DNA of 64,000 nucleotides, from positions 80,819 to 144,818 of IMG/VR virus record IMGVR_UViG_3300045988_060821; one strand, given 5' to 3'. This DNA is from a virus. The notes under the pieces are model-generated. The model worked only from the letters and a program-made list of their open reading frames with translations. It ran no database searches and had not been told where the DNA came from. Shown here piece by piece: positions 12,387 to 58,454 of this stretch (position 1 is its first letter; the number at the start of each line of letters is the position of its first letter). Both the position numbers and the translations under genes were made by a program.

Positions 12387-12965
12387 ATGTCTGCTATTGG
12401 ACAAATCTACTATCGTGTAGTAGATACAAGTAGCACTGGCGATGGAAAACATTATATTTCCTCTGGAATTGATATTTACAATGATATTGTAAGTGCTTCT
12501 AGTGCCAAATAGTTTACCAAAGTTGGTATTCAGGCTCCACCGGGAGCGCAAGTTGTCATGAATGCTAGCAAGACTATCATGATCGGCCGCACTGGTATTT
12601 ATGAGCTTGATGAAGATATTGTTATTACAAGTATGAAATTCGTTCGTCCTACAGTTTATATTAAAGACGAGGAAGAATCAGAAAGTAAGAAACAAGAAGG
12701 CGAGAAGATTATCAAGGAGGCTAAGGCGGCTCTTGAGGCCGCTATCGCTGCATTGGGAGAAGAGCCTACTGATCCAACTTCTGATGCTTATAAAACCTAT
12801 TGGAATGGATATAATGAAGCCAATGAGACTTACATTGCTGCATTTCAAAAAGGTAGTGCAATTTTAAATCAAGGTCTAAATGGAGTTTACAAGGAAGATA
12901 AAACTGTTGTTGGCGAGTTAGATAACGTGATTGTAGACTTTATTTACGATCCACTCTAGGGATAA
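12387..12965 (+). CDS. Hypothetical virion protein (about 192 aa, 2 TAG).
   Basis: SD box TAAGGAGGAG then ATG at 12387. Piece 12558-12959 is in frame. TAA at 12963-12965. Confidence 0.5.
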
Positions 12966-12977
12966 GGAGGTATAGAC

Positions 12978-24673: not shown

Positions 24674-25534
24674 ATGTTCAATAATTCTAATGGCTATAGT
24701 CTAGCTGATATTGCGGCTGCTACTGGTGGTAACAACCGCAATGATGGTATGTGGGACAACGGTGCGTGGTGGATTATTATCCTCTTCCTCTTCTGTTTCA
24801 ACGGTGGTATGTGGGGTAATGGTTTCGGTCGCGGCATGGGCGGCCAAGGCGCTGGATCTCCTGCGTTCCAGGGAACTGCAACTCGTGAGGAAATCGCTTA
24901 TGGTTTCGATATGAACGGTCTCCAGAGTGGTATTCGTGGTGTACAGCAGGGTCTCTGTGACGGACTCTATGCTATGAATACTGGAATGTTAAATGGCTTT
25001 GCTGGTGTTAATAATGCAGTTTGCTCTCTCGGCTATCAAACCGCTCAGCTTGCTAACGGTTTAACTTCTGACATTGTTGCTAACCGCTTTGCCGCACAAC
25101 AGGGCGTATGCCAGGTTGAAAATGCTATCAATCAGGCTCGTTATGATAATACTATTGGTCAGAATAGTATTGCTCGTGAGATTTCTGATTGCTGCTGCGA
25201 AAATGGTCGCGCTATGGAACGTGGTTTTGCTGATATTAACTATAATATGGCAACCAACACTTGCGCTATCCAGACCTCTATGGCAAATCACACCCGTGAT
25301 ATTATCGACAGTCAGAACGCTGGCACTCGTGCTATCCTTGATTATCTCTGCCAGGAGAAAATCTCTGATCTCCAGAGTGAGAACCAGGCTCTCCGCCTTG
25401 CTGCATCTCAGCAGGCTCAGAACAATTATCTGGTCAGCCAGCTCGGCACTAAGGCACCTGTTCCCGCTTATGTGGTTGCAAACCCATACTGCAACTGCGG
25501 GACCGCAGCTTATGGTTGCGGGTTAACTGCCTAA
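24674..25534 (+). CDS. Gly/Asn/Cys-rich membrane-anchored protein (286 aa, no TAG, higher GC).
   Basis: SD box AAAGGAGGAACA; intact ORF; one TM (WWIIILFLFCF); 13 Cys. Confidence 0.5.
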   Translation: MFNNSNGYSLADIAAATGGNNRNDGMWDNGAWWIIILFLFCFNGGMWGNGFGRGMGGQGAGSPAFQGTATREEIAYGFDMNGLQSGIRGVQQGLCDGLYAMNTGMLNGFAGVNNAVCSLGYQTAQLANGLTSDIVANRFAAQQGVCQVENAINQARYDNTIGQNSIAREISDCCCENGRAMERGFADINYNMATNTCAIQTSMANHTRDIIDSQNAGTRAILDYLCQEKISDLQSENQALRLAASQQAQNNYLVSQLGTKAPVPAYVVANPYCNCGTAAYGCGLTA

Positions 25535-27437: not shown

Positions 27438-27917
27438 TTACCAAGCGCATTTATTCTTCTTGATATGATGAGTTCCAATGCATACAGCATCCGCAATATC
27501 CTAGATAACATGGATACCATAATTCTATTCTACATAGAGTTGAGCATTCTTTTTCTATTCTGCTCTTGTTCGACCTTTAATACCTAAAGTAGATTTCCAA
27601 GACGAGGCGAGGACTGTTGAATGAGGAATCTGGATTTCTTGCAGTAATTCTGAAACAACTCCATAAACCTCTGCCAAGACCTTAAAGGTCTAAACATTAT
27701 TAGCCACATTGTTCTGTTGCTAAATATCTTCAAAGATTACTTCGTCGATATTATAATCTGTAACTAAAGTCTAAATACCCTATCGTAACTAAACTAGTCT
27801 AATATCGGTATTTGGATCATCTAAAGAAATCTTGCCGTAGGACTTTAACTTTCCATCTTCAAAGATAGCCCATCCCGTAACCTTCGAGGCTTGGTCAAGG
27901 GCTAACAAGCGACTCAT
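27438..27917 (-). CDS. RuvC-like Holliday-junction resolvase (159 aa) with 7 recoded TAG codons.
   Basis: N-terminal MSRLLALDQASKVTGWAIFEDG... and C-terminal ...IADAVCIGTHH (RuvC motifs). It is invisible in the ORF track because of the TAG density. Its ATG overlaps the dUTPase stop (TAATG). Confidence 0.7.
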
Positions 27918-32681: not shown

Positions 32682-33236
32682 TTAACAAAATTGCCCAGCT
32701 ATAAGATCGACAGCACGAAGTAAATCGCCTGCATCTTGATTTTTAATTACTTGATAATCAATATCCTCTAAATCTTCAAAATCTTGTTCATCTGTCGAGA
32801 ATCGTCTAATAATCTCCTTAATATCAGGATTCTCTTCTCTATTCAACTGCCTGATTAGACGTTCTTTATCACTAGTCTGCACATAATACACAGTTAAATC
32901 TACGAAATTATCTTCCATTAGGCATCTAATACCTTGAGGATTAAAGACGCCTACATTGATTTTATCTTTTGATAAACTAGATAAAGCAGTTCCATAGTGC
33001 CAGTCATTAAATTCAGTTGCTTCTAGCATATCGCCATTAAGGACTTTCTCTGTGAATTGGTCAATTGTTAAGAAGTGATAATTTATTCCCTCTTGTTCTC
33101 CTTCGCGAGGAGGACGAGTAGTACAGCTCACAATCTCATTAAATTTATTAGGATCTACTTTAACGAGAGCGCGAAGGATTGTATCCTTCCCGCTCCCGGC
33201 TTTACCAAACAAAGCGATGACTTTGACTTTATTCAT
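32682..33236 (-). CDS. Guanylate-kinase-like deoxynucleoside monophosphate kinase.
   Basis: P-loop GKAGSGKDT and the guanylate kinase signature CTTRPPREGEQEGINYHF. Confidence 0.75.
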   Translation of the reverse strand: MNKVKVIALFGKAGSGKDTILRALVKVDPNKFNEIVSCTTRPPREGEQEGINYHFLTIDQFTEKVLNGDMLEATEFNDWHYGTALSSLSKDKINVGVFNPQGIRCLMEDNFVDLTVYYVQTSDKERLIRQLNREENPDIKEIIRRFSTDEQDFEDLEDIDYQVIKNQDAGDLLRAVDLIAGQFC

Positions 33237-36200
33237 CTTCTTCTTCCTCTCCTGTTGCTCTCTCACTTCTTAGAACGAGAGAGCCATCAGCGGTTACTTC
33301 GTCGATATGATATAGTTGGTGACCATTGGAACTTGCATACTTCTTAGTTACAAATTCATCGCCTCTGCGGATACCTTGCACCATAATCATGTTTCCACGA
33401 TTGAACCAAGACTTCTCAATGACGGTTTTAGTTCCATCACTATTCTTGCGGAAGGTCTGCTTATCAAACAAGGCGAAATATTCCTGTCTGAATTTAACAG
33501 ATACTACGCCTGTTGTTGTAAGTAGATACACAACACTCTTAGTCTTATTTTTTGCAATGCAAGTTCCGCAGATTCTATTGAGCTTATAAATTGGAATAAT
33601 AGATGCACCTTTTTTGAAAGTTTTTTCAATGATTGAATCTTCAGGCAGAGAGAAGAAATCTACTAAACCATACTTTTGCGTATTCACATTACTTAATTCG
33701 TGGTCATGGTAATAGAAGCACAGAACTTCCATTTCCCAAGAGGAAATATTTCCTTTAGCATACTTTTCCCAATCTTGCATGAAGATTCGAGTATTCAGTT
33801 CATCAAGAATACTATCTTTATTTTCTTTAATCCAATCTCTGAATATATCCATTTCCTTTTGATAGAAGTTATCCCAATCTTTTACATTAAAGAGGAATAT
33901 ATCATTCTCATTCACGATATTCTCCTCAATGCCCCCGACTTGCGTGCTAAGCTCATAAATGAAGTCAACCGCTCGTTCATCCAACTTATAATAAGTCCCA
34001 TCATACTTACATTCTGCTTTTAGATACCGATTGAACTCATAGATTCGGCGCGCAAGAACTTGCCCTTCTGTATTTTCGGGCAAAAGACCATAGCGGATAA
34101 GACCTGGCATATTCTGTAGAGTTAAACGCTTTTTTCTATCACAAGTCATCCACAAATATTGTACCATAGCTTTTTTACGATCACAAAATTGATCAAAAGC
34201 ACCACCCTTAATAAGAGCAATCATAGCTTGCTTATTAGGTGTTACTCTATAATAAAAATCAACCATAGATACATATGGGCGTTTTGCGATAATCTCTTTA
34301 ATCAAATCATTGTTGACGTTAGTTAAACCCTTCAGACCAAACAAGATTTGATTGTTTTCCGCGTCGGGTTTAAAGCCAAGCGCAGAATGGTTAATATCAA
34401 CAAGAGATACTTTAATACCCTTGTTGCGAATTTCACCGATAGCTTTCGCTAACTTTGTATAGTCAGATTGCTCGCCCTCATCTTCATCAATAGCACCGCT
34501 ATTAACGATTAGGTACGCAGTATTCCAATACACAGGATTGAAATGAGTGGCGAGATAAAGAGTTTGCATACCAACAAAGCTATAAGCAAGAGCGTGGATT
34601 GCAGAGAATGAATAACCCATCTGCGGGCCGAGGCCAAACTTCCAGACATATTTACCCAATGTCTCTGACTTTGCCGTATCCAAAACCTTTTGGTGAAGTT
34701 CTGGAATCTTATTCATCTGCTTCTTACCAACAATCTTTCTTGCGGCGTTTGCTTCAGCCAGACTAAAGTTGCAAATATCGGGGTCCCGCAACATCTTCAT
34801 TAACTGTTCCTGAGAAGGAGGTACACCATAAGATGATAAGAAGTAAGGCTCCAAAGTCTTTTGCTCTTGTTTCGTCAGACCATTATTATCCATCTCTTGA
34901 TACCACAAAGAAATATTATTCTTATATCTGACATACTTTTCCATCGGAGTTTCTGCGCCCGGCTCAGAAGCCATAAGACGCATTAGACCATTTGCGTCCG
35001 CCATTTCGAGAGGATTATGCGGACGGATTTTCTTGGCCGCTTGTGCACCAACTGCACTATCGAACTGGAAGCAACCAATTACATCACCATTTGCCAGAGC
35101 AGTCCACATAGCTTCATCATCCTGCGGAAGAACAGATGGATGTAGATATTTATTATAAACCTCTCTAAGAGTTAAGTCTTTCTCAATAACTCCATCAGCT
35201 TGAAGAAGTTCAATAGTCTGAATGATAATATCCTGCACGCTTGTTAACAGGAAGTCATATTTCACAGAACCTGCGGCCTCCTGGTCATGTAGATCCCACT
35301 GGGTAATCAATGCGCCCTTTGGAGTACGCATGACTGCGGCAGAATCATAGATATTTTCATCAAAGAGAATGACACCAGATGCGTGACTACTTCTCTTATT
35401 CACCATGCCTTGAATACGAACAATGATGTCTAAGAGTCCGTCATACTGCGAAACCGCAGTTACAAATGCTTTAACAGGCTTTCTGCCTTTCTCTTGATTA
35501 CCATTGACAACATCTTCAATAGGCCACAAGAAACCACGCTCTTGAGGAATCAAAGAACTCAGATACTGTGCTTCATCAACATCAATACCATCTGGATATT
35601 CCTCAGAACGATAACCTCTACACGCAGTCAAGATTGCAGATTTCGTACCTTCTGTGCCGAAAGTGCAAACCTGAATAAGACCAAGTTCTCCTCTTTCCTT
35701 GCGGATTTCGGCGAAAATCTTCTGAATTTTAGACGGTGCCAAGTCAAGATCAATATCACCTAACTCAACACGTTCATCGTTAATGTAACGCCAGAATGGT
35801 AAATCCCATTCGATAGGATCGAGCTGAGTAATACCAAGGAGATAATGATTCAAAGCGGCGCACGCAGAACCACGACCTGCGCCGACTGTACTGCCGCAAT
35901 TCCAGAACAAATCTACATAGTGTTTCAATGTATTAGGATATGCAAACATACAAGTCTGCAACTTTTCACCGATAACTCTCTTTACTCTTGCTTCTTCTTC
36001 AAGTCTTTCCCAATACTCTTTCTTGTGGATAAGACCTTTCTCTTGCATCGCAATGATACACTCTTGAATCCAATACTTCTCTTGCTCATTATCAGATTCA
36101 ATCAAGGAAGTCAGTACCTTATAATCGTCACGGAAAGTATCCATCATATCTTCTGGAACTCGTGACCAATCATACTTATCATAATGAGTTACTTCTACTT

Positions 36201-37125
36201 CTGGAATAGACTGATGCTTCTCAAGAGAGTAAAACTCAATCTTATCCTTGATTTCATTGGAATTGTCGTAGATCCAATAAATTGTATTTAAGTCGTAGCT
36301 AGACAAAAGTAAATCTGTTGCCTCTTGCTCAGACATAAGATAAGTAAACTCATAAAATGAATCAACTTCTCTTTCTCCACCTTTGGAATTAAGATAGGAT
36401 TTATGCACATATCTATCTTCCTTGGTGAGATAGTGAGCGTCAGTGCCAACGCACATCTTTACGTCAAATGCTTTAGCAATACTAAGCATTCTCTTATTCG
36501 CAATAATCTGGTCTTCGTTATTCGCTGGCGCACACTCTATATAAAAATCATCTTTACCAAAGACATCAATACCGAACTCCATAAAGTCGATAATCTGCTC
36601 ATGGTAACGACGCGCATTATTTTCATCGTTAGCTTTTTCGCAAGCATCAAGGTTTAGAATAGATTGTCCCAATTCTCCACCGATACAAGCGGTTGTACCA
36701 ATAATATCTCCCTTAAATCTCTGCATAACTTCTTTAAGTTCAGATTTGAGGAGCGGTACTCTTTCCATTCGACGGTCATAATAACCGTTTGTCCATGCAA
36801 TAGAGGATAATTCTTTTAGACCTCTATAACCATGCTCATTCTTTGCGAGAAGAATAAAGTGATAATATTTCTGACCCATCTCTCGCGTATCGGTCAGATA
36901 GATCTCGTTGCCCAATGCTACGGTAAACTCAGGATGAGTTTCCTGTAGCTTCTTAGCATACTTATTGACTCTCATATGGGCACTCAACGATTCGTGATCT
37001 GTAATTGCGATTCCTGTCAATCCAAGCTCGATAGCTTTGTCAATCAACTCTTCCGGGTGATTTATACAGTCGAGAAGACGGAGATTGCTATATTCTGTAT
37101 GAGCATGATTGTTGAAATAACTCAT
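33229..37125 (-). CDS. dnaE: DNA polymerase III alpha-type (DnaE/PolC-family) replicative polymerase with N-terminal PHP domain (1298 aa, no TAG).
   Basis: PHP motifs HAHTEYS...AITDH at the N-terminus; length and domain order match a C-family polymerase. Confidence 0.85.
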   Translation of the reverse strand: MSYFNNHAHTEYSNLRLLDCINHPEELIDKAIELGLTGIAITDHESLSAHMRVNKYAKKLQETHPEFTVALGNEIYLTDTREMGQKYYHFILLAKNEHGYRGLKELSSIAWTNGYYDRRMERVPLLKSELKEVMQRFKGDIIGTTACIGGELGQSILNLDACEKANDENNARRYHEQIIDFMEFGIDVFGKDDFYIECAPANNEDQIIANKRMLSIAKAFDVKMCVGTDAHYLTKEDRYVHKSYLNSKGGEREVDSFYEFTYLMSEQEATDLLLSSYDLNTIYWIYDNSNEIKDKIEFYSLEKHQSIPEVEVTHYDKYDWSRVPEDMMDTFRDDYKVLTSLIESDNEQEKYWIQECIIAMQEKGLIHKKEYWERLEEEARVKRVIGEKLQTCMFAYPNTLKHYVDLFWNCGSTVGAGRGSACAALNHYLLGITQLDPIEWDLPFWRYINDERVELGDIDLDLAPSKIQKIFAEIRKERGELGLIQVCTFGTEGTKSAILTACRGYRSEEYPDGIDVDEAQYLSSLIPQERGFLWPIEDVVNGNQEKGRKPVKAFVTAVSQYDGLLDIIVRIQGMVNKRSSHASGVILFDENIYDSAAVMRTPKGALITQWDLHDQEAAGSVKYDFLLTSVQDIIIQTIELLQADGVIEKDLTLREVYNKYLHPSVLPQDDEAMWTALANGDVIGCFQFDSAVGAQAAKKIRPHNPLEMADANGLMRLMASEPGAETPMEKYVRYKNNISLWYQEMDNNGLTKQEQKTLEPYFLSSYGVPPSQEQLMKMLRDPDICNFSLAEANAARKIVGKKQMNKIPELHQKVLDTAKSETLGKYVWKFGLGPQMGYSFSAIHALAYSFVGMQTLYLATHFNPVYWNTAYLIVNSGAIDEDEGEQSDYTKLAKAIGEIRNKGIKVSLVDINHSALGFKPDAENNQILFGLKGLTNVNNDLIKEIIAKRPYVSMVDFYYRVTPNKQAMIALIKGGAFDQFCDRKKAMVQYLWMTCDRKKRLTLQNMPGLIRYGLLPENTEGQVLARRIYEFNRYLKAECKYDGTYYKLDERAVDFIYELSTQVGGIEENIVNENDIFLFNVKDWDNFYQKEMDIFRDWIKENKDSILDELNTRIFMQDWEKYAKGNISSWEMEVLCFYYHDHELSNVNTQKYGLVDFFSLPEDSIIEKTFKKGASIIPIYKLNRICGTCIAKNKTKSVVYLLTTTGVVSVKFRQEYFALFDKQTFRKNSDGTKTVIEKSWFNRGNMIMVQGIRRGDEFVTKKYASSNGHQLYHIDEVTADGSLVLRSERATGEEEEDE

Positions 37126-37187
37126 AAACTATCTCCTTTACCTTTTATATAAATATTATAGCATAATTAAATACAAAAAGCAAGTTA

Positions 37188-38348
37188 TCAATCTTTTAAT
37201 ACCAAGGTTAATTTCTGCGAAGCTCTTGTCACAGCTGTGTATAGCCATCTTGCATGGTCTGCTCTTTTTAGGACTTCTTCAAGCACTAGCACTTTATCAT
37301 ACTCGCTACCTTGACTCTTATGAACTGTAATACAGTAACCATAATCAAACTGCTCTGGTCGCAACTGCTTAGGAAACATTCGGAAGTTTTCTTTATTAAC
37401 AGTCGCTTCTTTTGTAGTAATAAGCTTATAGTCCATCAAGAGTTCATGGAATACTTGATCACGAGGGTCTGTTTCATCAATAGTCTCTGGTGCGAAATCA
37501 ATGATGCACATAGGATTAAGCCACGGATTTGGGTAGGTAGCAATCTCTTCAATTGTGCCAATAGTCCCATTAACAAGAGCATCACCTGTGGCAGTAATCT
37601 TATCCCAGTTATTCTTAAGACAAATAACTTTATCTCCAACAATAGGAGCAGGAATATCTTCGCCATATCGCATATTGCGATAATAATTATTCATAGTGTG
37701 ACGAGTAATATTCTTGCCACAGAGGATTTGATCCGCCCATGTGAACATACCATCACAAAGGTCTCTCTGTCGGACTACGTTGATTTCAGAACCCTTGTAA
37801 GGTTTAATAATCTTACCAGCACGAATATCCGCGGACAGGCGGATAATCTCACTTTCTGCGGCTTGACGCATAATTTCGTCAAGGAAGATATGCGGATGGT
37901 CGAGGATGCCATTCTCCTCGCCAATAGGAGGCAATTGACCTGGGTCGCCGCAAGCAATCACATAAACATTATGCGATAGCAGTAATTCCCACATCTGTTT
38001 TGGCAGCATAGATACCTCATCTACCACGACAATATCGCAATCAGAGTTGAGTGACTCTCTTGGAATATGAATGAAGGTGCCATCAGCTCGCTGTAAGGAT
38101 TTATAGAGTAGTCGGTGCGCAGTCATCGCAGTTGGACAACCTTTATTTCTTAACACTTGAGCTGCTTTGCCCGTATAAGCAATATAGGCCACTCGTTCAG
38201 GATTGATATCTAGAGCAGAAATAATGAACTTAATAAGTGTTGATTTACCAGTACCGGCGTATCCAGCAATCACAGTATAGGGTTCATTTTGGTGATATCG
38301 CTCTACTGCAATTCTCAATCCTTCCTCTTGTTTACGTGTTAGTTCCAT
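37188..38348 (-). CDS. Dda/RecD-like SF1 DNA helicase.
   Basis: Walker A GYAGTGKST, Walker B VVVDEVSML, and GDPGQLPPI motifs. Confidence 0.8.
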   Translation of the reverse strand: MELTRKQEEGLRIAVERYHQNEPYTVIAGYAGTGKSTLIKFIISALDINPERVAYIAYTGKAAQVLRNKGCPTAMTAHRLLYKSLQRADGTFIHIPRESLNSDCDIVVVDEVSMLPKQMWELLLSHNVYVIACGDPGQLPPIGEENGILDHPHIFLDEIMRQAAESEIIRLSADIRAGKIIKPYKGSEINVVRQRDLCDGMFTWADQILCGKNITRHTMNNYYRNMRYGEDIPAPIVGDKVICLKNNWDKITATGDALVNGTIGTIEEIATYPNPWLNPMCIIDFAPETIDETDPRDQVFHELLMDYKLITTKEATVNKENFRMFPKQLRPEQFDYGYCITVHKSQGSEYDKVLVLEEVLKRADHARWLYTAVTRASQKLTLVLKD

Positions 38349-38559
38349 TTTCCTTCTCCTTAATCGCTGCATCTACTTTAGCTTTTAAATCATACAAATC
38401 TTCCAATCTCACGTCATAGAGCAGTCTAGTATTCATCGGTAGTGTAATTAAATCTCCATTTAGCTTATAGGAGAGTTGTTCATGCAGCGAAGCTACTTCT
38501 TCAACATTCATACTAGTCATATCTACATATAAAATATTCATACCACTTTTCCTTTCCAA
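38332..38559 (-). CDS. Small hypothetical protein (75 aa).
   Basis: Intact ORF only. Confidence 0.3.
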   Translation of the reverse strand: MERKSGMNILYVDMTSMNVEEVASLHEQLSYKLNGDLITLPMNTRLLYDVRLEDLYDLKAKVDAAIKEKENGTNT

Positions 38560-38629
38560 AAATAGTAAACCCTATTTTAGTTTCGGCGAACGGCCGTCTA
38601 GGTTCCGGCCAGTTCGTCGATTCTTTATT

Positions 38630-39394
38630 TTAACTTATGAAGTAATTATATGCAGCAATAGCATTTTGCTGTCGCGTATAATAGCTCCCAGAACCGCACC
38701 TCTCATAGCATTTAGCAAATGCTAGAGCAGCGCTCTTAATGTCGGTTAAATCCAAGAAACTATTGTAATCAAAGTTTCTCTTATAAACATAACCGAATGT
38801 ATCGAACTCGTACTCAATAGTATCTCGCAGATAGTCGCATTGCTCTTCTAACGAGGCTCCCCATACATTTGAGTAGGCTTTATTCCATTGACATATACCA
38901 TAATATCCGTTACCAGAAATCGTGGCTTGAATGTCTAATGTGTTACCTCCAGTTTCAGCCATTATATTACCAAGAATGCCAGCGCAAACTTGGTTACTGT
39001 AGCCCAGATCTTTGAAGTAGGTCCATATATAAGTAGCTGTTGGGTACTCTTCTTCTTTTTGATGCCAATGTTCCATGAGTTGGTCATATACACTTTGATA
39101 TTTCAGTCTCAAAGCATTTGCATCAGCGTGTTCTTGTTTTGCTAATACAATGACGTCATGGTCTTCACTATAGCCTAGCTATCTAGCAGCTTCAGCCATT
39201 TGATGTGCGGCGTTCATATTCGAGATTTGTTCCGCAATAAGCTCAATCAATGTATCCATATCATCAAGAGTATAACTAACAGTTTCGTTATACGGCACGG
39301 AATAAGCTTGAGCAGTGACCGCTAGGCCATAGCTACATCCGCATAAAGACAATATAATGATTAAACTTGTGATAACTTTAATAAAACGACTCAT
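38630..39394 (-). CDS. Lipoprotein with a lysozyme-like (phage tail lysozyme family) peptidoglycan hydrolase domain (about 254 aa, 1 TAG at 39179-39181).
   Basis: N-terminal lipobox signal IIILSLCGCS. Pieces 39179-39394 and 38630-39112 share a frame and are joined by TAG. Motifs GILGNIMAETGGN and GICQW. Confidence 0.6.
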
Positions 39395-39470
39395 TTGATT
39401 GTTCCTCCTTTAGTAAGAGGTCGCGCAATCATTAAAAATAATATTCCTGACGATTTATAATCTCATAATT

Positions 39471-41180
39471 CTAGATAATAAGTTGTGGTGTTATACTATT
39501 GAAGTATTTATTTACTTCGGCCTTACCCACAAGATTAATAGTCACGCAACCGTTTTCGCTGAACAAACTATCCAGCTCCTCTTCGCTTGATTTAAACTTG
39601 ATGCAAGTAACTCCGTTGGGTAATTGGATCTTCAACGTGGGGTTCCTATCTCTTGCCATGAGTGTAATCATGTCTTTTGTTACTGCAACATTTTCCACCG
39701 CGATAAGTGGTTCATCAACATTTTGACCCCAAAGATTTTTCATGTTACCTAGTTCAAGAATTTCTTTAGGATTAAAGTTGTTTACAGAATGAATAAAATC
39801 CACTTTATAACTTGGTGAAAATTCTATATCCTTGAGTGCATTATCGGCATATTCGAGAAAGGCATCAAAATTCTCGTCTAAGATACCGAAACCAAATGCA
39901 TTAGGATGGCCTTCAGCAAGATAAACTAAACCGCTATCTCGACAAAAGCCTCTGAAATCATTTAGCTTAGATTTCTCATATCCACGCGCCGAACCGCTCC
40001 AAGCGATTTTCCCATCTTCTTCTACTTCCACTAACAATGCCACAGGCCGCTGATACTCTGCCATAAGTTTATTAGCAATTAAACCAGTGATACCTCTATC
40101 AAAAGAAGGATGTTCTAATTTAATTAACAGAATCTTATGGTCGAGGAGTTTATTATCCTCGATAATCGCTTTAACCTGTTCAACTGCGGCATCCTGATTT
40201 CTAGTCTGCCGATTCTTGACATTAGTGCAAGTCCGCAGACTTTGTTCCAACCTTGTCTCTTGTTGACCAGAGCATCCTCTCTTAGTTGAAGGAACTAAAT
40301 CAAAAGCTTTCCAGTTAAGCATCGACTCAAATAATAGAGTCTTTTCAGCCATTGTTCCAACTCTTGTAATTGAGTTAATAAGCGGCACAATGTAGAAAGC
40401 CACCCCGATAGGAGTAGGGTGATCACCTAACTGATAATGGTTCTTTTCCGCCATACCTTTGATAAATGGATTTTGAATTTGGCTTAATCCAGTTTGAACC
40501 AGATAGTGTGTTTCAAAATCTCTCAAATCCATCATATCTCCAACTAAGCCAATAGCTACTATATCCAAGAATTGATCCGCTTTCTGTTGATCTGCGGGAA
40601 GCAGAGAATCAATAAATTGACATAGCTTATAAACTACACCAACACCGGAAAGCGACTTAGTAGGATAATCACAAAGCTGATTATTTACGACACAGGCGTA
40701 TTCTGAAATTCTCTCAGCCTAATGGTGATCCAATACAAGGACTTCAATACCTTTATCATGAAGAGCCTTGTGAATATCGTAGTCATTAGAACTTGAATCT
40801 GGTGCAATGACCAATGATGTCTCTGATGGAATCAACTCAGGGTTAATGCCATGAATCTTGCCATCGTGGAAACTATATGAAATATGCGATATAGCAGATG
40901 GAAATACGGCATGAATATAATTCAATAATAAAGCTGCTGAAGTATATCCATCGCAGTCGCTATCTACTTGCACATGAATATGAAAACTATCTCTACTAAG
41001 TTGATTAAAAATCATCTTAGCTGCACTCTCAATATTTTTGAGTAAAAGGGGTGATAAATTATCTGATTCTGATACATTAAGATAATGGTCAATATCTTCA
41101 AATTTAATCCCTCTATTTGTCAACACCTGTTCAATAGCGGAGTAACCGTCATGAATAGGCTTAATCAGCTAATAATCCAT
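39471..41180 (-). CDS. DHH-family (RecJ-like) phosphoesterase/exonuclease (about 570 aa, 2 recoded TAG at 41169-41171 and 40719-40721).
   Basis: SD box AAGGAGG then ATG at 41180. The LVLDHH motif is followed directly by TAG, then an open frame into piece 39471-40568. DHHA1 Gly-His motif (AEGHPNAFG). Confidence 0.8.
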
Positions 41181-41191
41181 GATTTACCTCC

Positions 41192-42295
41192 TTAACCTTT
41201 TGGAATAATTCGTTCGGCTAATAACTTCTCAAAAACTTGCGGCCCTTGGTCAATAGGGCTAGCTTTATAAGGTGAAATCATAGCTTTATCGAATATAGCT
41301 GTTACTCTTATAGAGTTATTATATTTATTATAAAAATGAATAAGTTTAGCTTTTAATCGCTTAAATTCATCATCACTAATTTCTTGAAACTGCCTATCAA
41401 GAGCAATCACAATTTCTCTCGCGCCAACGTGCTTCAACAAATCAACCTGATAGCTCGATAAGCTACTTCCGCAAATAGCGACAGAAATATCGTTCTCATG
41501 CCCATAATATGATTGATACATTAAACAAGATTTCTCACTCTCAAAGATAACTGCCGCGTGGATTTTAGCGATATTATCTTTGCTATTATTTAAGTTATAC
41601 AAATTCATACTTAATGGATGATTGTATAACTGCTTACCAATCAATAGAGGTCTATATTTGCCATATCTTTCAGCTTCATCTGCCGCCAAAGAACGACCTC
41701 TAATACCAATCAAACGATTATCAATGTCAAAATGCGGGATTGTGATTTGCTCGCCGCCTGGATAGTAGCCAATGAGATTCTTCTTACTCACTTCATCGCT
41801 AATTCCTTCTTGCTCCCAGCGAGAGATTCGCGGATAAGCAAAGCGAGTAAGAATAACTGGATCATATTCCTTTAGCTGAACCATAGGTTTCTTTTCTGGA
41901 AGCCGCAGATTGTGTTTCTTAAATATGTCCCAGTCTTTTAATTCCGATTGTTCATCTTGTTTTTCGATACCATCAAAACCAAAGTACGATGCTATATAAT
42001 CCATAGCATCGTACATTTCCCATTTCAGTTGCTTTTGATTTTTCATTACCTTGATACATAGGTCAAAGATATCAAAAGTAGGGTCAATACAGCCAGTATA
42101 GCATCTAAACAATCGAGTATTAGTGTAATAATAAAGCTTGCGGGAACCTTCGCCAGGTAGATTGTGACAAATGGTCTGGGAGATAAGCCCTCCATCTGTG
42201 TACTCAGGCTCGCCTCCCCAAGCTTCTACCAAGTCATAAATCTGCTCTAGTTCTAGTTTCTCCTTTAGCTCGTCTTTATCATAATAACGAGACAT
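41192..42295 (-). CDS. DnaG-like DNA primase (CHC2 zinc finger plus TOPRIM).
   Basis: Zn finger CHN...FRCYTGC near the N-terminus; TOPRIM-like acidic motifs downstream; sits beside the DnaB helicase. Confidence 0.7.
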   Translation of the reverse strand: MSRYYDKDELKEKLELEQIYDLVEAWGGEPEYTDGGLISQTICHNLPGEGSRKLYYYTNTRLFRCYTGCIDPTFDIFDLCIKVMKNQKQLKWEMYDAMDYIASYFGFDGIEKQDEQSELKDWDIFKKHNLRLPEKKPMVQLKEYDPVILTRFAYPRISRWEQEGISDEVSKKNLIGYYPGGEQITIPHFDIDNRLIGIRGRSLAADEAERYGKYRPLLIGKQLYNHPLSMNLYNLNNSKDNIAKIHAAVIFESEKSCLMYQSYYGHENDISVAICGSSLSSYQVDLLKHVGAREIVIALDRQFQEISDDEFKRLKAKLIHFYNKYNNSIRVTAIFDKAMISPYKASPIDQGPQVFEKLLAERIIPKG

Positions 42296-42468
42296 TACTC
42301 AATAATAACGAGATGAGTTACCGTACCACGCAGACCATAACTCTCATTGATAATCACCATTACATACTGATAAGGGTTCTTCTTTGCTTCATCATCCTTA
42401 CGAGTAGAAAGAATACTATCAAACTGCTTCTTAGTAATCTGATAATCAATAGCCTTAGAGTTCTTCAT
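42295..42468 (-). CDS. Small hypothetical protein (57 aa); TAATG-coupled to the primase.
   Basis: SD box TTAAGGAGAAG then ATG at 42468. Confidence 0.3.
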   Translation of the reverse strand: MKNSKAIDYQITKKQFDSILSTRKDDEAKKNPYQYVMVIINESYGLRGTVTHLVIIE

Positions 42469-42480
42469 ATTATCTTCTCC

Positions 42481-44021
42481 TTAATTATTATTATCCCATG
42501 CACTGGGTCCATCATCTACAATAACCTTAATATCTTCAATACCAACCATTTCATGATGCCAAGTGGTACAAAACTGAGGATGAATGCGACAAGTACCTAA
42601 ATCCGCGGTACACCACAAGAAAACGCCCTTATAAGAGCCTCGTCTGTTCTTATAGACAGAGAGTTTAATGTTCGGTCTTTGAAGATTGGGGTTTGCTTCA
42701 AGAATTGGTTCTAACTTTGCTAAATCTTCTTCTGAAACACCTAGCAAAATCATACCTACGTCAGCTCGGTCGGCAATACTCTTAGCACCACGTAGTAAGT
42801 TCTGGTCAGGAGTTTCGCTATCTTTATAATCACCATTCAGCTGAGTTGCTGACATGATAAAAATACCATATTTATTTGCCAAATCTTTCAGTCTTGCGGA
42901 AAGCATAAACAAGATATTATCCTCTCTCAAGCGGATACCACCTGTCTTCTTGGTAATTTCCTCCAAGATTTTCAAAGAGGTCTGAATATAGTCGAACAAG
43001 ACATACTTAACATCATGCTCTCGAATATTCTTCTTAATCTTATTCTCAACATCTTGCAAAGAGAAATCTGGTAATTCCTCAATCCAGATAGGGCTATCTT
43101 TAATAATCTTCGCCGCCTCTACGACTCGCTCGCGTTCTCCCTCAAGATACTGACCGTTAAGAATATGCTCCTCATTTACGCAAGAAAGAAAAGCCAACAT
43201 CATTGTTTGAACTTCACCTTTATCTTGCTCTGTGGCAATAAAGAGTGTTGGTTGAGACGCGCCATTTTTAATCCAGCCAAACTGTTCATGGTAGATACGA
43301 TTACACGCAAAATTGCAGGCATCCGCGATCATACTTCTCGTTTTACCGATACCAGTAGCTGCGGACCGCAAGTAATATTTCCGCAATCTTGCTCCTCTTG
43401 TTACCGTATTGATAAGCGGTCCATAGAGAGGAATACCGACCTCTGGATGCTTCTCAAGGTCTTCGATTAACTCCATGATACCATCACCCGCTTGATATCC
43501 AAGACCTAAATCATCTTCAATATACTTACTCTTGATTTCATCAATCTTAGTATCAATCGTATTTGCAATATCAATTAGTGAAGTTGCATCTAACCAATCC
43601 TCTTGTTGCTGACGCTTCTTAGTATCAAGAAGATTATCTGCGTCATACAATCCACTTACATCCACTCCATAGCTATCATAAGCTCTTAACAAAGTGAACT
43701 TTTTCAATCTACCGTAGTAGTAGTTAAAAGTGTCTTGTCGAGCATTTTGAGAAGCTTCTAATAGATACTCAACACCTTTATTCTTCTTAAAGATTGCATC
43801 AAACTTAGGTCTATTGGCTAGATAGTCAATAATAGCGTCGATATTAACCTAACTACCTGTCAGATGAATATTATACATACTACCGAATACAATCTTGTGA
43901 AAATCTTCTACGAAGTCCTCTTCATGGATCATATACTTGTCTGTGTCATCGAGAATCGCGGCATTATTGAAGACACAACCGATAATCTGTGTGATAGCAG
44001 CAGTATCAACATAACTACTAT
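42481..44021 (-). CDS. DnaB-like replicative helicase (about 513 aa; 1 recoded TAG near 43851).
   Basis: The N-terminal DnaB-like domain (43708-44021) is in frame with the ORF-track piece 42481-43707 via a single TAG. RecA-fold Walker A ATGIGKT. SD box GGAGAGGAAG then ATG at 44021. Confidence 0.75.
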
Positions 44022-48451: not shown

Positions 48452-48763
48452 TCAGTTATCGTCTCCCACAGTATTTGTGTATCCTACAATGTTGAATTGA
48501 TTGAGCCAGCTATCTAGTTCATCAATAACAGCAATACATTTCATACCTCTAGCTTTTGTTAGAAAATATCCATAGCTAATAAATCCTAAATTTTGCGGTA
48601 GATTACGCTCTTTTGTTAACTCTAAGAACTTTTTAACCATCAGTTGAGGATGTTGAGTAACAAAGAGTACCATCTTATCAGGATACTTATGTGCTAAATC
48701 ATTTGCGTAGTACATTAAGCTAGTTGTCTTACCTGCACCACGACTTGCAATTACCTTAAACAT
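48452..48763 (-). CDS. Small P-loop NTPase/kinase-like protein (103 aa).
   Basis: Walker A SRGAGKTT. SD box GGAGG then ATG. TGA abuts the thyA-like ATG. Confidence 0.4.
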   Translation of the reverse strand: MFKVIASRGAGKTTSLMYYANDLAHKYPDKMVLFVTQHPQLMVKKFLELTKERNLPQNLGFISYGYFLTKARGMKCIAVIDELDSWLNQFNIVGYTNTVGDDN

Positions 48764-49680
48764 TATGAACCTCCACGAGTTCCATTCATACCTAGTTCTT
48801 TAGTCTTATAGAACTCAATCCAATAAGTCTCTCGTTCATTTAACTAATCTCTAGGCACTTCTTCCAAAATCTCAAATATAAAATTATATTGACCAGATTT
48901 TTGCATCGCCTAATATAACTTATTAGTCACAGGTCCGTATGCTAAAGAGGTTTTAATGTGCTGTCTAAAACGCTCTTTAATATCAACAGACTAACCAATA
49001 TAAGCCTAACCAGTTGTTAGATCGGTAATTTTATAGATACCGCATACTTTACCTTTATTAGTGGCAAATAGATGCGTCATAAGAATATCATATGCAGGAC
49101 GATAATAGGTCTCCCATATTACTTTATCAATGATTTCCTTTTTCACAAAGTGAATTTGCAAATCACGCAATAGAGTAATATCGTTCAAACTAAATTCATC
49201 AATAGCAAGACGATAATAGTCCTAATCTGCGGCAATTGCTTCTTGGCGTTGCTAAGCCTAGATATAAGATAACTATTTAGCTTCCAATTCATGGAGTTTA
49301 TCTTGCTAATGTGAGATTTGATTAGTTATCTATTGAAGTTCTGCTAAATGATATTTTTCTTTAGCTTGATATGTTTCATCAAGCTCTTTACTTTTCTTTT
49401 CAAATTGAGCCTTAGCGCTCTCTTCTGCTCGCTATTCAGCGCTTTCCCGCAACTTATTCGCAGTATCAGTCAAAGAATTGACAATTTCATTATGTGATAC
49501 AATATCTTCTTTTACTTTTGCTAATTCTCTCTATTTCAATGCAATATCTTGTTCAATGCGTTTATTCTCTTCTTGTCTTTCTTTATTTATCAATACTACC
49601 TAAAGCCGATTATTGCGAAGATATAAAACATATCCGATCAGCGCAAGAATAACCAAGCCTGATAATATATAATAAATCAT
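48763..49680 (-). CDS. Membrane-anchored coiled-coil protein with a C-terminal GIY-YIG nuclease domain (about 305 aa, 15 or more recoded TAG).
   Basis: The frame of ORF 49006-49188 extends both ways through TAGs. The N-terminus is a TM helix MIYYILSGLVILALIGYVLYL, then about 180 aa of Q/E/K/A-rich coiled-coil. The C-terminus reads KVCGIYKITDLTTG-Q-AYIG-Q-SVDIKERFRQHIK...YNFIFEILEEV...ERETYWIEFYKT...GMN (I-TevI-like catalytic core). TAA at 48763-48765. Confidence 0.6.
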
Positions 49681-56702: not shown

Positions 56703-57026
56703 TTAAATGGTTGCTTCATCCTCGACTACTTGCTGCTATTGTTTCTCACACATAGCTAAATCATAAGTAATCCCACCCTTGCGGTGATCGGATTTACTCA
56801 TGTTTAAGTAAAAAGAGCAAACAATACCATGCGCAGACCATGGCAATCCTACTAATGCACTAATCCATGGGAGAGTACCCAGATAACCAAGATGTACGCA
56901 ATAGAAAGCAAGAGCAATACCGGAGATAGTTACAATCCACAAGAGAGAGCGAATGTCGCAAATAAGCTATTTAGAAAATTCTTTTTTCTAGCTATGTTTT
57001 CCTTTTCCTCTTGTTTGACGACCCAT
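56703..57026 (-). CDS. Holin-like small membrane protein (about 107 aa, 2 TM, charged termini). Its ATG overlaps the endolysin TAA (TAATG); 3 recoded TAG.
   Basis: ORF 56736-56942 extends upstream through TAGs to an ATG at 57026 and downstream through TAG 56736 to TAA 56703. Two hydrophobic helices, located immediately after the endolysin. Confidence 0.45.
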
Positions 57027-58432
57027 TATTGACCACTCTTTTCAGCATAACGCTTTAGAACAGCCGCAAATTCGCCACGAGTCATAAAGCGTTTTGGCAT
57101 CAACTGACCTTTTTCATTGCCATTGATTAAGCCATTAGCCTGTGCCCAAGTCATTGCGTCTTGCTCCCAGGTGACTGGTTGCGCAGCGAGCTGACTAAGA
57201 TATACATTCATCATTTCATTGAATTTTTCTTGAGTCATGTCTTCATCATCCTCCTCGATAACTTTAGACTGCATTAAAGCAGCAACATCTTTGCGAACGG
57301 TTGTCATATCTTTGCCATATTTCTTGAACCAATGGTATACATCAGCATGGTTACTACCGAGGCCCAACTGATAGCTATCTTGATGGCAGAGAATGGTTGG
57401 AACTGTTACGCCATTTACATTTACAGAACCATTTGGATTGATATTATATGTCTTACATAAGTAGGCTGTCAATTCGCAAGCCTCTTTGTAGACTTTAGCG
57501 AAGTAATCGGGGTCACTTAGATTGTCTTCGCAGATTTCAAACTGAATCCATCCAGTATTACAGCTACCTTTAGAGCCTGAGCCGCAACCCCAAGGTCTAT
57601 AATTCCAAGGTAGTGTTTGTACTGCGGCTACGCTTCCGTCAGCAAGAGCACCAATCCAAGCGTTTACACCAGCCTGCTATGAGCTATGATTCCAATCGGT
57701 TCTACTGGTATTTTTACCAATTTTAGTAATCAGAGATTGATAGTTCTTGTCGTTCTCAGACGGTTGAACATAACGCTTAATAGTTTTATTATTGGCGCCT
57801 GTACTGTGCCAGAGGACGCCTTTAATATCCATCTTGCGGGTTTGCTTATAACAAGTGCTATTAGTCATCATGCAAACCAATGGGTGATTAGCGTTTGAAT
57901 ATTTCATCTTAGCTATTTCCTCCTTTTGCGTTGAATAAATATTGAAGTAACGTTGGCTATATAACGCACGCTATTTTAGTGTGCTAGAGCTCTGATCTGC
58001 CGGTCTTTCAAACTGAGTGACCACCAAATTAGATGCTTCTTCAACAGATGAGGTAGTCTTCAAGATTTTTAATAGCTAGGAGTAACTTGTAGTTAGTTCC
58101 TGATATAAAAAATCTAGTTGGGTGTTTAAGTCACCAATAGACTTTCCTCGACTTTTACACAGCTAAAACAGACCTTGCTTGCGGCTCCAATATGTCCATT
58201 GAGCTAAACCATATCCCGCAGAATCATGCGTGAAATTGGTATAGGAGCCGTTATCAACAGCCGCAGTATACGAGGCATCGTTCATTCCTAACTTACTCTC
58301 ATATGAGTTCTATAAGTTAGTTGGAATAAGTCCGCTTTCCGCGAATAGATTCCCCATTAGACCTGCGGCACCGCAGTTACTTAATCCTTTTGATTTGAGA
58401 TAATCCCAAATAACTTGAGCATTATCCGCCAA
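57026..58432 (-). CDS. Three-domain endolysin: N-terminal lysozyme-like (phage tail lysozyme family) domain, central Amidase_2 (N-acetylmuramoyl-L-alanine amidase) and C-terminal SLH cell-wall-binding domain. About 468 aa with about 6 recoded TAG.
   Basis: One frame runs from TTG 58432 (SD box GGAGGTGAGG) through pieces 57677-57907 and 57026-57472. N-terminal domain motifs AGLMGNLFAESG...GYGLAQWT...FERP. Amidase_2 motifs LWHSTGANN...NAWIGALADGSV...GWIQFEICE...ILCHQD. SLH domain W..DAMTWAQANGLINGNEKGQLMPKRFMTRGEFAAVLKRY. Confidence 0.8.
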
Positions 58433-58454
58433 TGACCTCACCTCCAATTAGGAT

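What the first reader, a model, noticed from the sequence alone, without database searches (positions are those of the whole stretch)
38630..39394. Secreted lipoprotein carrying a lysozyme-like domain in the middle of the replication block
A lipobox signal peptide (IIILSLCGCS) is fused through one TAG at 39179 to a phage-tail-lysozyme-family domain (GILGNIMAETGGN, GICQW). This is distinct from the endolysin and is not in the virion module. A lipid-anchored muramidase expressed with early or middle genes could act in superinfection exclusion, cortex or cell-wall remodelling, or as a spanin-like lysis accessory. The same catalytic family recurs as the N-terminal domain of the endolysin.
Basis: seen in the sequence. 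Interest (0 to 1): 0.55.

Follow-up and report, generated by a model that had tools for sequence, protein, structure and literature searches.

The report
Exported lipoprotein lysozyme in phage replication genes
A gut phage that reads the TAG stop codon as glutamine carries, among its DNA-replication genes, one intact gene for a membrane-anchored, exported cell-wall-cutting enzyme that is separate from its normal lysis enzyme and conserved across a large uncultured phage family, but whose role is untested.

Summary
Window 38630-39394 (minus strand) is one 254-codon gene with a single in-frame TAG (codon 72, 39179-39181). The whole window is TAG-recoded. Near-identical relatives carry CAG at codon 72 and more distant ones CAA or CAG, so TAG most likely encodes Gln. 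Both halves are under purifying selection (dN/dS about 0.13-0.15).

The protein has four parts:
- a strong Shine-Dalgarno site and a signal peptide with a lipobox (L-C-G-C20);
- a long alpha-helical hairpin;
- an invariant Glu147 aligned to the proposed catalytic Glu45 of gp13.

The gene sits between RecJ and a Pif1/Dda helicase in all 83 syntenic phage loci compared, down to 39% identity. A canonical endolysin (PF18013 + amidase + SLH) with an adjoining holin-like gene lies 18 kb away. Bacillus phage SPbeta carries a non-homologous membrane-anchored wall enzyme (YorM, 3D domain) in the homologous module.

The TAG is polymorphic and not conserved outside this clade, so it is probably not a dedicated timing gate. 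The molecular identity is solid. The biological role is inferred only: an auxiliary, pre-exported wall-loosening enzyme is most likely. This is a new variant of a known kind, of moderate interest.

The parts
38630..39394 (-). Single gene for a 254-aa exported lipoprotein muramidase ('LysLipo'); ATG at 39394-39392, TAA at 38632-38630
   Evidence: Full-length homologues. dN/dS is 0.15 for codons 1-71 and 0.13 for codons 73-254.
39404..39410 (-). Shine-Dalgarno AAGGAGG, 9 nt before the ATG. Only 37 nt separate the RecJ TAA (39432) from this ATG.
   Evidence: Read directly from the sequence. No comparable site precedes the internal TTG at 39112.
39335..39394 (-). Signal peptide (residues 1-20) ending in the lipobox L17-C18-G19-C20 (lipobox codons 39335-39346)
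   Evidence: Pattern test. The AF2 model has helix 2-16 followed by a disordered linker at 17-30. Of 103 full-length homologues, 101 have a hydrophobic N-terminal segment and 62 have a lipobox.
39179..39181 (-). In-frame TAG, codon 72, read as a sense codon (most likely Gln), at the end of helix 1 of the hairpin
   Evidence: Among the IMG/VR relatives, those >=97% identical carry TAG in 14 loci and CAG in 2 (L004, L015). Relatives at 63-75% identity carry CAA or CAG. L001-L003 also carry TAG.
39047..39268 (-). Antiparallel alpha-helical hairpin (helices 43-72 and 80-116) with a conserved tip (AAR-x-LGY-x-E-x-H, residues 69-79)
   Evidence: AF2 model with pLDDT 95-99 in this region. Conservation. 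Fold hits are only generic coiled-coil hairpins such as MexA, AcrA and GreA.
38636..39043 (-). phi29 gp13-type muramidase domain (PF18013), residues 118-253
38954..38956 (-). Codon GAA for Glu147, the predicted catalytic glutamate
   Evidence: Aligns with gp13 Glu45, which the literature names as the suggested catalytic residue (PMC10394673). Invariant in 88 homologues.
38583..38620 (-). G+C-rich RNA stem-loop just after the stop codon, with no U tract. Possibly a transcript-stabilising or weak terminator element.
   Evidence: strand folding gave -24.3 kcal/mol, z=-3.1. The terminator scan did not call it.
39432..41180 (-). Upstream neighbour: RecJ-like DHH exonuclease (YorK-like), itself carrying in-frame TAGs (for example 40719-40721, right after the DHH motif)
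37188..38372 (-). Downstream neighbour: Pif1/Dda-type helicase (no TAG), followed by DnaE at 33229-37125
57026..58447 (-). Canonical endolysin with PF18013 + Amidase_2 + SLH domains, no signal peptide and 5 in-frame TAGs. It is the second copy of the catalytic family.
56703..57026 (-). 107-aa membrane protein abutting the endolysin: a holin candidate
   Evidence: Hydrophobic segments. No family hit. The assignment rests on position and topology only.

Best explanation
Window 38630-39394(-) is one functional gene of a TAG-to-Gln recoded, SPbeta-like phage of about 150 kb. The host is probably a gut Clostridia species.

Shown:
- The gene is continuous.
- It has a strong ribosome-binding site, a signal peptide with a lipobox, a helical hairpin and a gp13-type muramidase domain with the catalytic glutamate conserved.
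- It holds a fixed position between RecJ and a helicase across the phage family.
- A separate holin-endolysin pair lies elsewhere in the window.

Inferred mechanism:
- The gene is co-transcribed with the replication genes and is therefore made early or in mid-infection.
- The protein is exported by Sec.
- It is lipidated at Cys20 by the host Lgt/Lsp pathway and held on the outer face of the cytoplasmic membrane.
- The hairpin acts as a stalk or docking element.
- The muramidase cuts glycan strands of the innermost, newly made peptidoglycan.

Most likely role (about 0.35): a pre-positioned, holin-independent auxiliary wall-loosening enzyme. Its local, tethered activity prepares a thick wall for the cytoplasmic endolysin, or is unleashed when the holin collapses the membrane potential. 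This would make it the functional counterpart of the membrane-anchored wall enzyme YorM of SPbeta.

The TAG is an ordinary Gln codon of this genome rather than a dedicated switch.
For: One gene, TAG read as sense:
- The two pieces are in frame.
- The window is recoded throughout. TAG makes up 21-57% of Gln codons in most large virion-module genes (3-14 in-frame TAGs each). No TAG occurs in DnaE or the helicase.
- The RecJ DHH motif is followed by a TAG.
- Codon 72 is CAG in L004 (100% aa identity) and L015, and CAA or CAG in relatives at 63-75% identity.
- The segment around it is conserved, with L73 invariant.
- dN/dS is 0.13-0.15 on both sides of the TAG.
- AAGGAGG precedes the ATG, and no such site precedes the internal TTG.

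Export and lipidation:
- The lipobox rule is met.
- 101 of 103 homologues keep a hydrophobic N-terminal segment, and 62 of 103 keep a lipobox.

Enzyme:
- PF18013, E=4.6e-18.
- Glu147 aligns with gp13 Glu45 and is invariant.
- The AF2 model has mean pLDDT 92.5.

Context:
- The order DnaB, YorJ-like, RecJ, LysLipo, helicase, DnaE, Gmk holds in all 83 syntenic phage loci compared, down to 39% LysLipo identity.
- G+C (38.7%) and TAG use (1 of 14 Gln codons) match the replication block.
- The endolysin with a holin-like gene lies at 56703-58447.
- SPbeta yorM (TM anchor + 3D domain) follows yorL/DnaE in the homologous module. Its promoter region is bound by the master repressor MrpR (PMC10516654).
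Against: - There are no expression data. Co-transcription with RecJ is inferred from a 37-nt gap, and the promoter scan was uninformative.
- SignalP and LipoP were not available. Position -2 of the lipobox is Cys, which is unusual, and 40% of homologues lack a lipobox, so lipidation is not essential to the family.
- No suppressor tRNA is present in this 64-kb window.
- At other TAG sites, relatives often carry Glu or Lys rather than Gln, so the Gln assignment rests mainly on codon 72 and on published code-15 precedent.
- The phage already has a complete endolysin with the same catalytic family, so the need for an auxiliary lysin is not obvious.
- The related Enterococcus phages have no such gene at this position.
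- The function of YorM is itself unknown.
Confidence: 0.6

Rival explanations
1. Rpf/Sps-like wake-up or wall-growth factor. The tethered muramidase is made with the replication genes to stimulate peptidoglycan turnover, or to release muropeptide signals, in slow-growing or dormant host cells. That would let the host support replication of a large phage genome. Lysis is not its purpose.
For: - SPbeta carries YorM, a member of the Sps family (3D domain, related to Rpf by domain displacement; PMC1084345), in the homologous replication module.
- In about 38 Patescibacteria loci, PF18013 replaces the Rpf or 3D domain in a DUF348-G5 protein next to ksgA. This is the RpfB/YabE architecture and context. 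The three catalytic domains therefore appear interchangeable in that role.
- The gene's position and its TAG and codon profile are those of the replication block.
Against: - The argument is purely by analogy.
- LysLipo lacks DUF348, G5 and LysM modules.
- YorM has no demonstrated function.
- A lipid-tethered enzyme releases few diffusible products.
- No host is known, so host dormancy is unknown.
Confidence: 0.2
2. The TAG is a programmed timing gate. Before the phage switches the code, ribosomes stop at codon 72 and make only a 71-residue lipopeptide. The catalytic domain is made only once TAG suppression is active. This would protect the cell from premature wall damage.
For: - The TAG lies upstream of the whole catalytic domain.
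- It is the majority allele among sequences >=97% identical: 14 of 16 IMG/VR loci, plus L001-L003 and the window itself.
- Published work proposes that recoded stops delay lysis genes (bioRxiv 10.1101/2021.08.26.457843).
- The endolysin has 5 TAGs.
Against: - Near-identical genomes carry CAG instead (L004, L015).
- Most other clades have no TAG in the gene, or have one at a different position.
- RecJ and DnaB in the same block also carry TAGs, so TAG must be readable when this block is translated.
- One TAG among 14 Gln codons is about the background rate of the replication block.
Confidence: 0.2
3. Superinfection-exclusion lipoprotein. The surface-anchored protein blocks DNA injection or adsorption by competing phages, as known Gram-positive phage lipoproteins do.
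For: It is a phage-encoded lipoprotein outside the lysis and virion modules, probably expressed early. By general knowledge, lipoprotein Sie factors such as Ltp of phage TP-J34 exist.
Against: - The catalytic Glu and the full lysozyme fold are invariant across the family, which points to enzymatic activity rather than binding.
- There is no similarity to known Sie proteins.
- The lipobox is lost in 40% of homologues.
- No lysogeny genes were looked for.
Confidence: 0.08
4. Two separate genes, or a pseudogene. The TAG is a true stop, giving a 71-aa lipopeptide plus a cytoplasmic 160-aa lysozyme started at TTG 39112, or a decaying gene.
For: Under the standard code the ORF list shows two ORFs. 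No suppressor tRNA was found in the window.
Against: - In-frame TAGs occur genome-wide in conserved genes.
- CAG or CAA occupies this codon in relatives.
- The 22 codons between the TAG and the TTG are conserved, including invariant L73 and near-invariant H79.
- No ribosome-binding site precedes the TTG.
- dN/dS is about 0.15 on both sides.
- The AF2 model folds across the junction at pLDDT 98.
Confidence: 0.03
5. A misplaced virion-associated tail lysin, as most PF18013 proteins are.
For: All sequence and fold neighbours outside the family are tail or virion proteins: Bacillus phage tail lysins, gp13 and BFVD hits of 600-1200 aa. A GenBank TPA record labels a relative 'Morphogenesis protein 1'.
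Against: - A cleavable signal peptide with a lipobox is incompatible with cytoplasmic virion assembly.
- The protein is small and has no tail-attachment domain.
- The gene sits in the replication block on the opposite strand from the virion module.
- BFVD matches cover only the catalytic domain (TM-score about 0.4).
Confidence: 0.03

Closest known systems
phi29 gp13 N-terminal lysozyme domain (PDB 3CSQ/3CSR; Pfam PF18013 Phage_lysozyme2)
   Different: gp13 is a cytoplasmically assembled tail-tip protein fused to an M23 peptidase. This protein is a small exported lipoprotein with an N-terminal helical hairpin, and it is encoded among replication genes.
SPbeta YorM (Sps family, 3D domain)
   Same: A small wall-cleaving enzyme with an N-terminal membrane anchor, encoded in the homologous YorG-to-YorL replication module of the nearest cultured phage group. 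Its function in the phage cycle is also unknown.
   Different: There is no sequence or fold homology (3D/MltA-like against gp13-type). YorM lies after DnaE rather than between RecJ and the helicase. It has a TM anchor rather than a lipobox.
Sec-exported and SAR endolysins (for example Lys44 of Oenococcus phage fOg44, P1 Lyz; from general knowledge)
   Same: Holin-independent export of a phage muralytic enzyme that waits outside the membrane. SAR endolysins show membrane tethering before activation.
   Different: Those enzymes are the phage's main endolysin and sit in the lysis cassette. Here a separate cytoplasmic endolysin with a holin-like gene exists 18 kb away, and the tether is a lipid that is not expected to be released.
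Coiled-coil peptidoglycan hydrolases controlled by FtsEX (PcsB, CwlO, RipC, EnvC; from general knowledge)
   Same: An N-terminal antiparallel helical hairpin followed by a wall hydrolase domain, acting at the outer face of the membrane.
   Different: Different catalytic domains. No evidence of FtsX binding. The hairpin here matches only generic coiled coils.
Code-15 (TAG to Gln) recoded gut phages (crAss-like, Lak, phAss-1 group)
   Same: In-frame TAGs are concentrated in virion and lysis genes and are rare in replication genes. TAG aligns with Gln codons of relatives.
   Different: No suppressor tRNA lies within this window. The phage belongs to an SPbeta-like DnaE lineage, not to Crassvirales.

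Membership tests
PF18013 Phage_lysozyme2 (gp13-type muramidase) | Profile match above the Pfam gathering score over the whole domain | tested here: met
   E=4.6e-18, 66.2 bits against a cut-off of 28.2, profile positions 2-140 of 140
PF18013 Phage_lysozyme2 (gp13-type muramidase) | Fold of the gp13 N-terminal domain | tested here: met
PF18013 Phage_lysozyme2 (gp13-type muramidase) | Catalytic glutamate equivalent to gp13 Glu45 | tested here: met
   Glu147 aligns with Glu45 and is invariant in 88 homologues. The role of Glu45 is taken from PMC10394673.
PF18013 Phage_lysozyme2 (gp13-type muramidase) | Muramidase activity on peptidoglycan | not testable with these tools
   Needs a purified protein and a zymogram or reducing-sugar assay
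Bacterial lipoprotein (PROSITE PS51257-type signal) | Basic n-region, hydrophobic h-region and a lipobox ending in Cys within residues 15-35 | tested here: met
   R3 and K6; hydrophobic core SLIIILSL; S-L-C-G-C20 fits my own coding of the PROSITE pattern. Position -2 is Cys, which the pattern allows but which is unusual.
Bacterial lipoprotein (PROSITE PS51257-type signal) | Prediction by a trained tool (SignalP 6, LipoP) and actual Lgt/Lsp processing | not testable with these tools
   No such tool is available here. Needs lipid labelling, globomycin treatment or a C20A mutant.
Genetic code 15 phage (TAG = Gln) | In-frame TAGs inside conserved genes, with coding density restored when TAG is read as sense | tested here: met
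   Public gene calls for relatives also read through the TAG.
Genetic code 15 phage (TAG = Gln) | TAG positions align with Gln codons of relatives | tested here: inconclusive
   Codon 72 aligns with CAG or CAA in the nearest non-TAG relatives. RecJ codon 4 is mostly CAA. RecJ codons 154 and 570 are mostly GAA, and DnaB codon 59 is Lys or Gln.
Genetic code 15 phage (TAG = Gln) | Phage-encoded suppressor tRNA with a CUA anticodon | tested here: not met
   ARAGORN found no tRNA in the 64-kb window. The genome is about 148 kb, so the tRNA may lie outside the window. Some recoded phages lack one (PMC10607447).
Canonical endolysin of a holin-endolysin cassette | Adjacent to a holin gene, in the late or lysis region | tested here: not met
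   The neighbours are RecJ, a 75-aa soluble ORF and a helicase. The holin-like ORF lies beside the other lysin, at 56703-57026.
Spanin (outer-membrane lipoprotein subunit) | A small non-enzymatic lipoprotein paired with an inner-membrane partner, in phages of diderm hosts | tested here: not met
   The protein is 254 aa and carries an enzyme domain. No embedded or adjacent partner gene is present. The host hints point to Clostridia.
Sps/Rpf muralytic factors (YorM, YabE, RpfB) | A 3D or Rpf catalytic domain | tested here: not met
   Only PF18013 was found, whereas YorM has PF06725 3D. The resemblance is positional and functional, not homologous.
FtsEX-type coiled-coil hydrolases | Interaction of the hairpin with the extracellular domain of FtsX | not tested
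   Only the hairpin-plus-hydrolase layout is seen. No complex modelling was possible.

The most novel reading that the evidence does not exclude
The protein could be a phage-encoded counterpart of the Rpf/Sps/YabE class of wall-growth or resuscitation factors. In this reading it is a membrane-tethered muramidase, made together with the replication machinery, that reactivates peptidoglycan turnover or muropeptide signalling in quiescent gut Clostridia so that a 150-kb phage genome can be replicated. The supporting pattern is that three unrelated catalytic domains (Rpf, 3D and PF18013) substitute for one another in two places: the chromosomal RpfB/YabE scaffold next to ksgA, and the SPbeta-type phage replication module. 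A related variant is that the conserved hairpin tip docks on a host membrane partner such as FtsX to switch the enzyme on.
Probability: 0.15. Interest if true: 0.75.

Novelty: new variant of a known kind. Interest (0 to 1): 0.42.

Why it matters
Phage wall hydrolases are normally sorted into two classes: virion-borne lysins for entry and endolysins for exit. This looks like a third, conserved class in an abundant family of uncultured gut phages. One related protein was seen on 870 contigs. The enzyme is exported, usually lipid-anchored, and encoded and probably expressed with the replication genes. An unrelated but analogous enzyme occupies the same module in the model phage SPbeta. If the role can be established, it would show what these large Gram-positive phages do to the wall before lysis. 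SPbeta delta-yorM is an available genetic system for testing this. The case is also a clean worked example showing that apparently split genes in such contigs are artefacts of reading a code-15 genome with the standard code.

Tried and rejected
- Megablast of 33000-42500 against cultured phages gave no match. tblastn of the protein found only distant tail lysins at about 30% identity.
- ARAGORN found no tRNA in the window.
- NCBIfam gave nothing meaningful for LysLipo or for the holin candidate. PHROGs gave only an unknown-function family and a weak tape-measure hit.
- The promoter and terminator scan was at background level and is not informative.
The 98%-identical P0001 was used instead.
- The afdb50 fold library was unavailable.
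- A literature search for lipoprotein endolysins returned spanin and SAR papers only, with nothing matching this architecture. The CwlT lead, recalled from memory as a lipoprotein-like conjugation muramidase, was not confirmed by sequence or fold hits and was dropped.
- The hypotheses of a pseudogene, two separate genes or a virion lysin were considered and rejected, as set out under the rival explanations.

Full report
**1. Observation**

The feature lies on the minus strand. Under the standard code the ORF list shows two ORFs: a 71-aa ORF (39179-39394) and a 160-aa ORF (38630-39112). Translating 38630-39394 in one frame gives 254 residues with a single internal stop. That stop is TAG at 39179-39181, codon 72. 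An AAGGAGG Shine-Dalgarno site lies 9 nt before the ATG at 39394. Nothing comparable precedes the internal TTG at 39112.

**2. The TAG is a sense codon**

The same phenomenon occurs throughout the window.
- RecJ is interrupted by a TAG directly after its DHH motif.
- When TAG is read as sense, most large genes of the virion module (about 100-21000) become continuous, with 3-14 in-frame TAGs each. In these genes TAG makes up 21-57% of all Gln codons.
- DnaE (1298 codons) and the helicase contain none.

Public gene calls for relatives already read through the TAG. P0001 is 98% identical, and its loci L001-L003 carry TAG at codon 72.

Eighty IMG/VR relatives were compared.
- Among the 16 that are at least 97% identical, codon 72 is TAG in 14 and CAG in 2 (L004, which is 100% identical in protein, and L015).
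- It is CAA or CAG in relatives at 63-75% identity.
- It encodes other residues further out.

A single C/T difference between otherwise identical genes is the expected signature of TAG = Gln. At other TAG sites in RecJ and DnaB, relatives carry Gln, Glu or Lys. The Gln assignment is therefore likely but not proven. No suppressor tRNA lies in this window, and published recoded phages sometimes lack one (PMC10607447).

The segment around codon 72 is among the most conserved of the N-terminal half (AAHQMAEAAR-x-LGYSEDH, with L73 invariant). dN/dS against an 87% relative is 0.15 for codons 1-71 and 0.13 for codons 73-254. The two-gene and pseudogene readings are therefore rejected.

**3. The protein**

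Pfam PF18013 (Phage_lysozyme2) covers residues 119-252 with E=4.6e-18. An AlphaFold2 model of the 98%-identical P0001, built with 88 homologues, has mean pLDDT 92.5. The model shows, in order:
- a signal-peptide helix at residues 2-16;
- a disordered linker around the lipobox;
- a small beta element;
- a long antiparallel helical hairpin (43-72 and 80-116);
- the catalytic domain.

Glu147 aligns with gp13 Glu45 and Gln156 with Gln54. The literature names these as the suggested catalytic and substrate-stabilising residues (PMC10394673). Glu147 is invariant in 88 homologues.

The hairpin matches only generic coiled-coil hairpins. Its tip (residues 69-79) is the most conserved part of the N-terminal half.

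The N-terminus satisfies a PROSITE-style lipoprotein rule with Cys20. Among 103 full-length homologues, 101 keep a hydrophobic N-terminal segment and 62 keep a lipobox. The rest look like ordinary signal peptides or anchors. Export is thus the conserved property and lipidation a frequent variant. In BFVD only the catalytic domain finds partners, nearly all in 600-1200-aa virion proteins. The small exported architecture is not represented there.

**4. Context**

The gene order is DnaB, YorJ-like protein, RecJ, LysLipo, (75-aa ORF), Pif1/Dda helicase, DnaE, guanylate kinase. It holds in all 83 syntenic phage loci compared, down to 39% LysLipo identity (Pfam labels). The gap between RecJ and LysLipo is 37 nt. 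A G+C-rich stem-loop without a U tract follows the stop codon.

The gene's G+C (38.7%) equals the window average. Its TAG use (1 of 14 Gln codons) resembles the replication block, not the late genes.

The endolysin is a different gene, at 57026-58447(-). It has PF18013 + Amidase_2 + SLH domains, no signal peptide and 5 TAGs. It abuts a 107-aa membrane protein that is a plausible holin.

The closest cultured phages by DnaE are Enterococcus phages and Bacillus SPbeta, at about 39-40% identity. The Enterococcus phage has no wall enzyme between RecJ and the helicase. SPbeta encodes YorM directly after DnaE/yorL. YorM has an N-terminal membrane anchor and a 3D (MltA-like) domain. Its promoter region is one of those bound by the master repressor MrpR (PMC10516654). 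It belongs to the Sps family of muralytic proteins (PMC1084345).

Whole-phage contigs of this family are binned with Oscillospiraceae, Eubacterium, Clostridium and Lachnospiraceae MAGs. The endolysin carries an SLH wall-binding domain. The host is therefore probably a monoderm Clostridia species. The family is abundant: one related protein occurs on 870 contigs and is labelled 'Morphogenesis protein 1' in a GenBank TPA record.

**5. Mechanism**

Shown:
- one intact gene;
- an export signal with a lipobox;
- an intact gp13-type active site;
- fixed placement in the replication block;
- a separate lysis cassette.

Inferred:
- co-transcription with the replication genes;
- Sec export and lipidation at Cys20;
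- tethering at the outer face of the membrane, with the hairpin as a stalk or docking element;
- cleavage of nascent glycan strands.

The role I consider most likely (about 0.35) is an auxiliary wall-loosening enzyme that is exported without a holin. It would then be restrained by its tether and by the energised membrane until the end of infection.

The main rival (about 0.2) is an Rpf/Sps-like role in stimulating wall turnover. It is suggested by the YorM parallel and by a side observation. In about 38 Patescibacteria loci, PF18013 is the catalytic domain of a DUF348-G5 protein next to ksgA. That is the RpfB/YabE architecture and context.

The idea that the TAG is a dedicated timing gate (about 0.2) is weakened in three ways:
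- CAG alleles occur in near-identical genomes.
- TAG is absent from most other clades.
- TAGs also occur in RecJ and DnaB.

Superinfection exclusion, a spanin-like role and a virion lysin are unlikely, for the reasons given in the rival and membership sections.

**6. Novelty and verdict**

Neither stop-codon recoding nor the catalytic family is new, and the recoding explains the apparent split. What is new is the combination of:
- an exported, usually lipidated architecture;
- a helical hairpin of unknown function;
- a strictly conserved position among replication genes in a large uncultured phage family;
- a non-homologous analogue in SPbeta.

I rate it a new variant of a known kind, with moderate interest (0.42). 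The molecular description is secure. The biological role is open and directly testable.

Noticed in passing
window 1-64000; for example 2508-6398(+), 7722-10463(+), 40719-40721: The whole window uses TAG as a sense codon. Several virion genes have 10-14 in-frame TAGs, and across the virion module TAG makes up as much as 57% of a gene's Gln codons. DnaE, the helicase and many early-looking genes have none. RecJ has a TAG directly after its DHH motif. Standard-code gene calls fragment many of the genes.
   Followed up: yes
L095-L142 (Patescibacteria/Saccharibacteria genome contigs), for example L133:7500-8636 and 8639-9415: In about 38 of 49 loci, the PF18013 lysozyme domain is the C-terminal domain of a DUF348-G5 protein immediately upstream of ksgA/rsmA. 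This is the architecture and context of actinobacterial RpfB and firmicute YabE, with a third, unrelated catalytic domain. It looks like a further case of non-orthologous domain displacement.
   Followed up: partly
L143 (Bacillus phage SPbeta NC_001884) 12934-13650: yorM encodes a membrane-anchored 3D-domain (MltA-like) wall enzyme of unknown function. It lies right after the DnaE gene yorL, in the replication module homologous to the window's. It is an analogue of the finding, not a homologue.
   Followed up: partly
window 56703-58447 (-): Lysis cassette: an endolysin with PF18013 + Amidase_2 + SLH domains (5 TAGs), abutted by a 107-aa membrane protein that looks like a holin. The SLH domain suggests a host whose wall polymer binds SLH domains.
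   Followed up: partly
window 60667-62163 (-): An SPFH/flotillin-like membrane protein gene has G+C of 50.5% against 38.7% for the window. It uses 32 CAG to 1 CAA for Gln, whereas CAA predominates in most other genes. This compositional outlier is probably a recent acquisition.
   Followed up: partly
window 24674-25534 (+): A 286-aa Gly/Asn/Cys-rich ORF with a hydrophobic segment has G+C of 48%, uses 18 CAG to 3 CAA and has no TAG. It is another compositional outlier of unknown function.
   Followed up: no
window 48763-49680 (-): A GIY-YIG nuclease-domain ORF with an N-terminal hydrophobic segment and a coiled-coil region carries 13 in-frame TAGs (50% of its Gln codons). It is one of the two most TAG-dense ORFs in the window (42.6 per 1000 codons, against 50.3 for the ORF at 27438-27917), although it lies among TAG-free genes.
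   Followed up: no
window 38583-38620 (-): A G+C-rich RNA stem-loop (-24 kcal/mol, z=-3.1) lies directly after the LysLipo stop codon, without a U tract. Its conservation in relatives was not checked.
   Followed up: partly
L007, L008, L022, L026, L035 and others, between LysLipo and the helicase: The spacing between LysLipo and the helicase or DnaE varies by 0.5-3 kb among relatives. This suggests inserted small genes, possibly homing endonucleases, in this part of the module.
   Followed up: no
window 39432-39473: Under the standard code RecJ would end at a TAG (39471-39473). Read as code 15 it continues 13 codons to a TAA at 39432, which leaves only 37 nt before the LysLipo start.
   Followed up: partly
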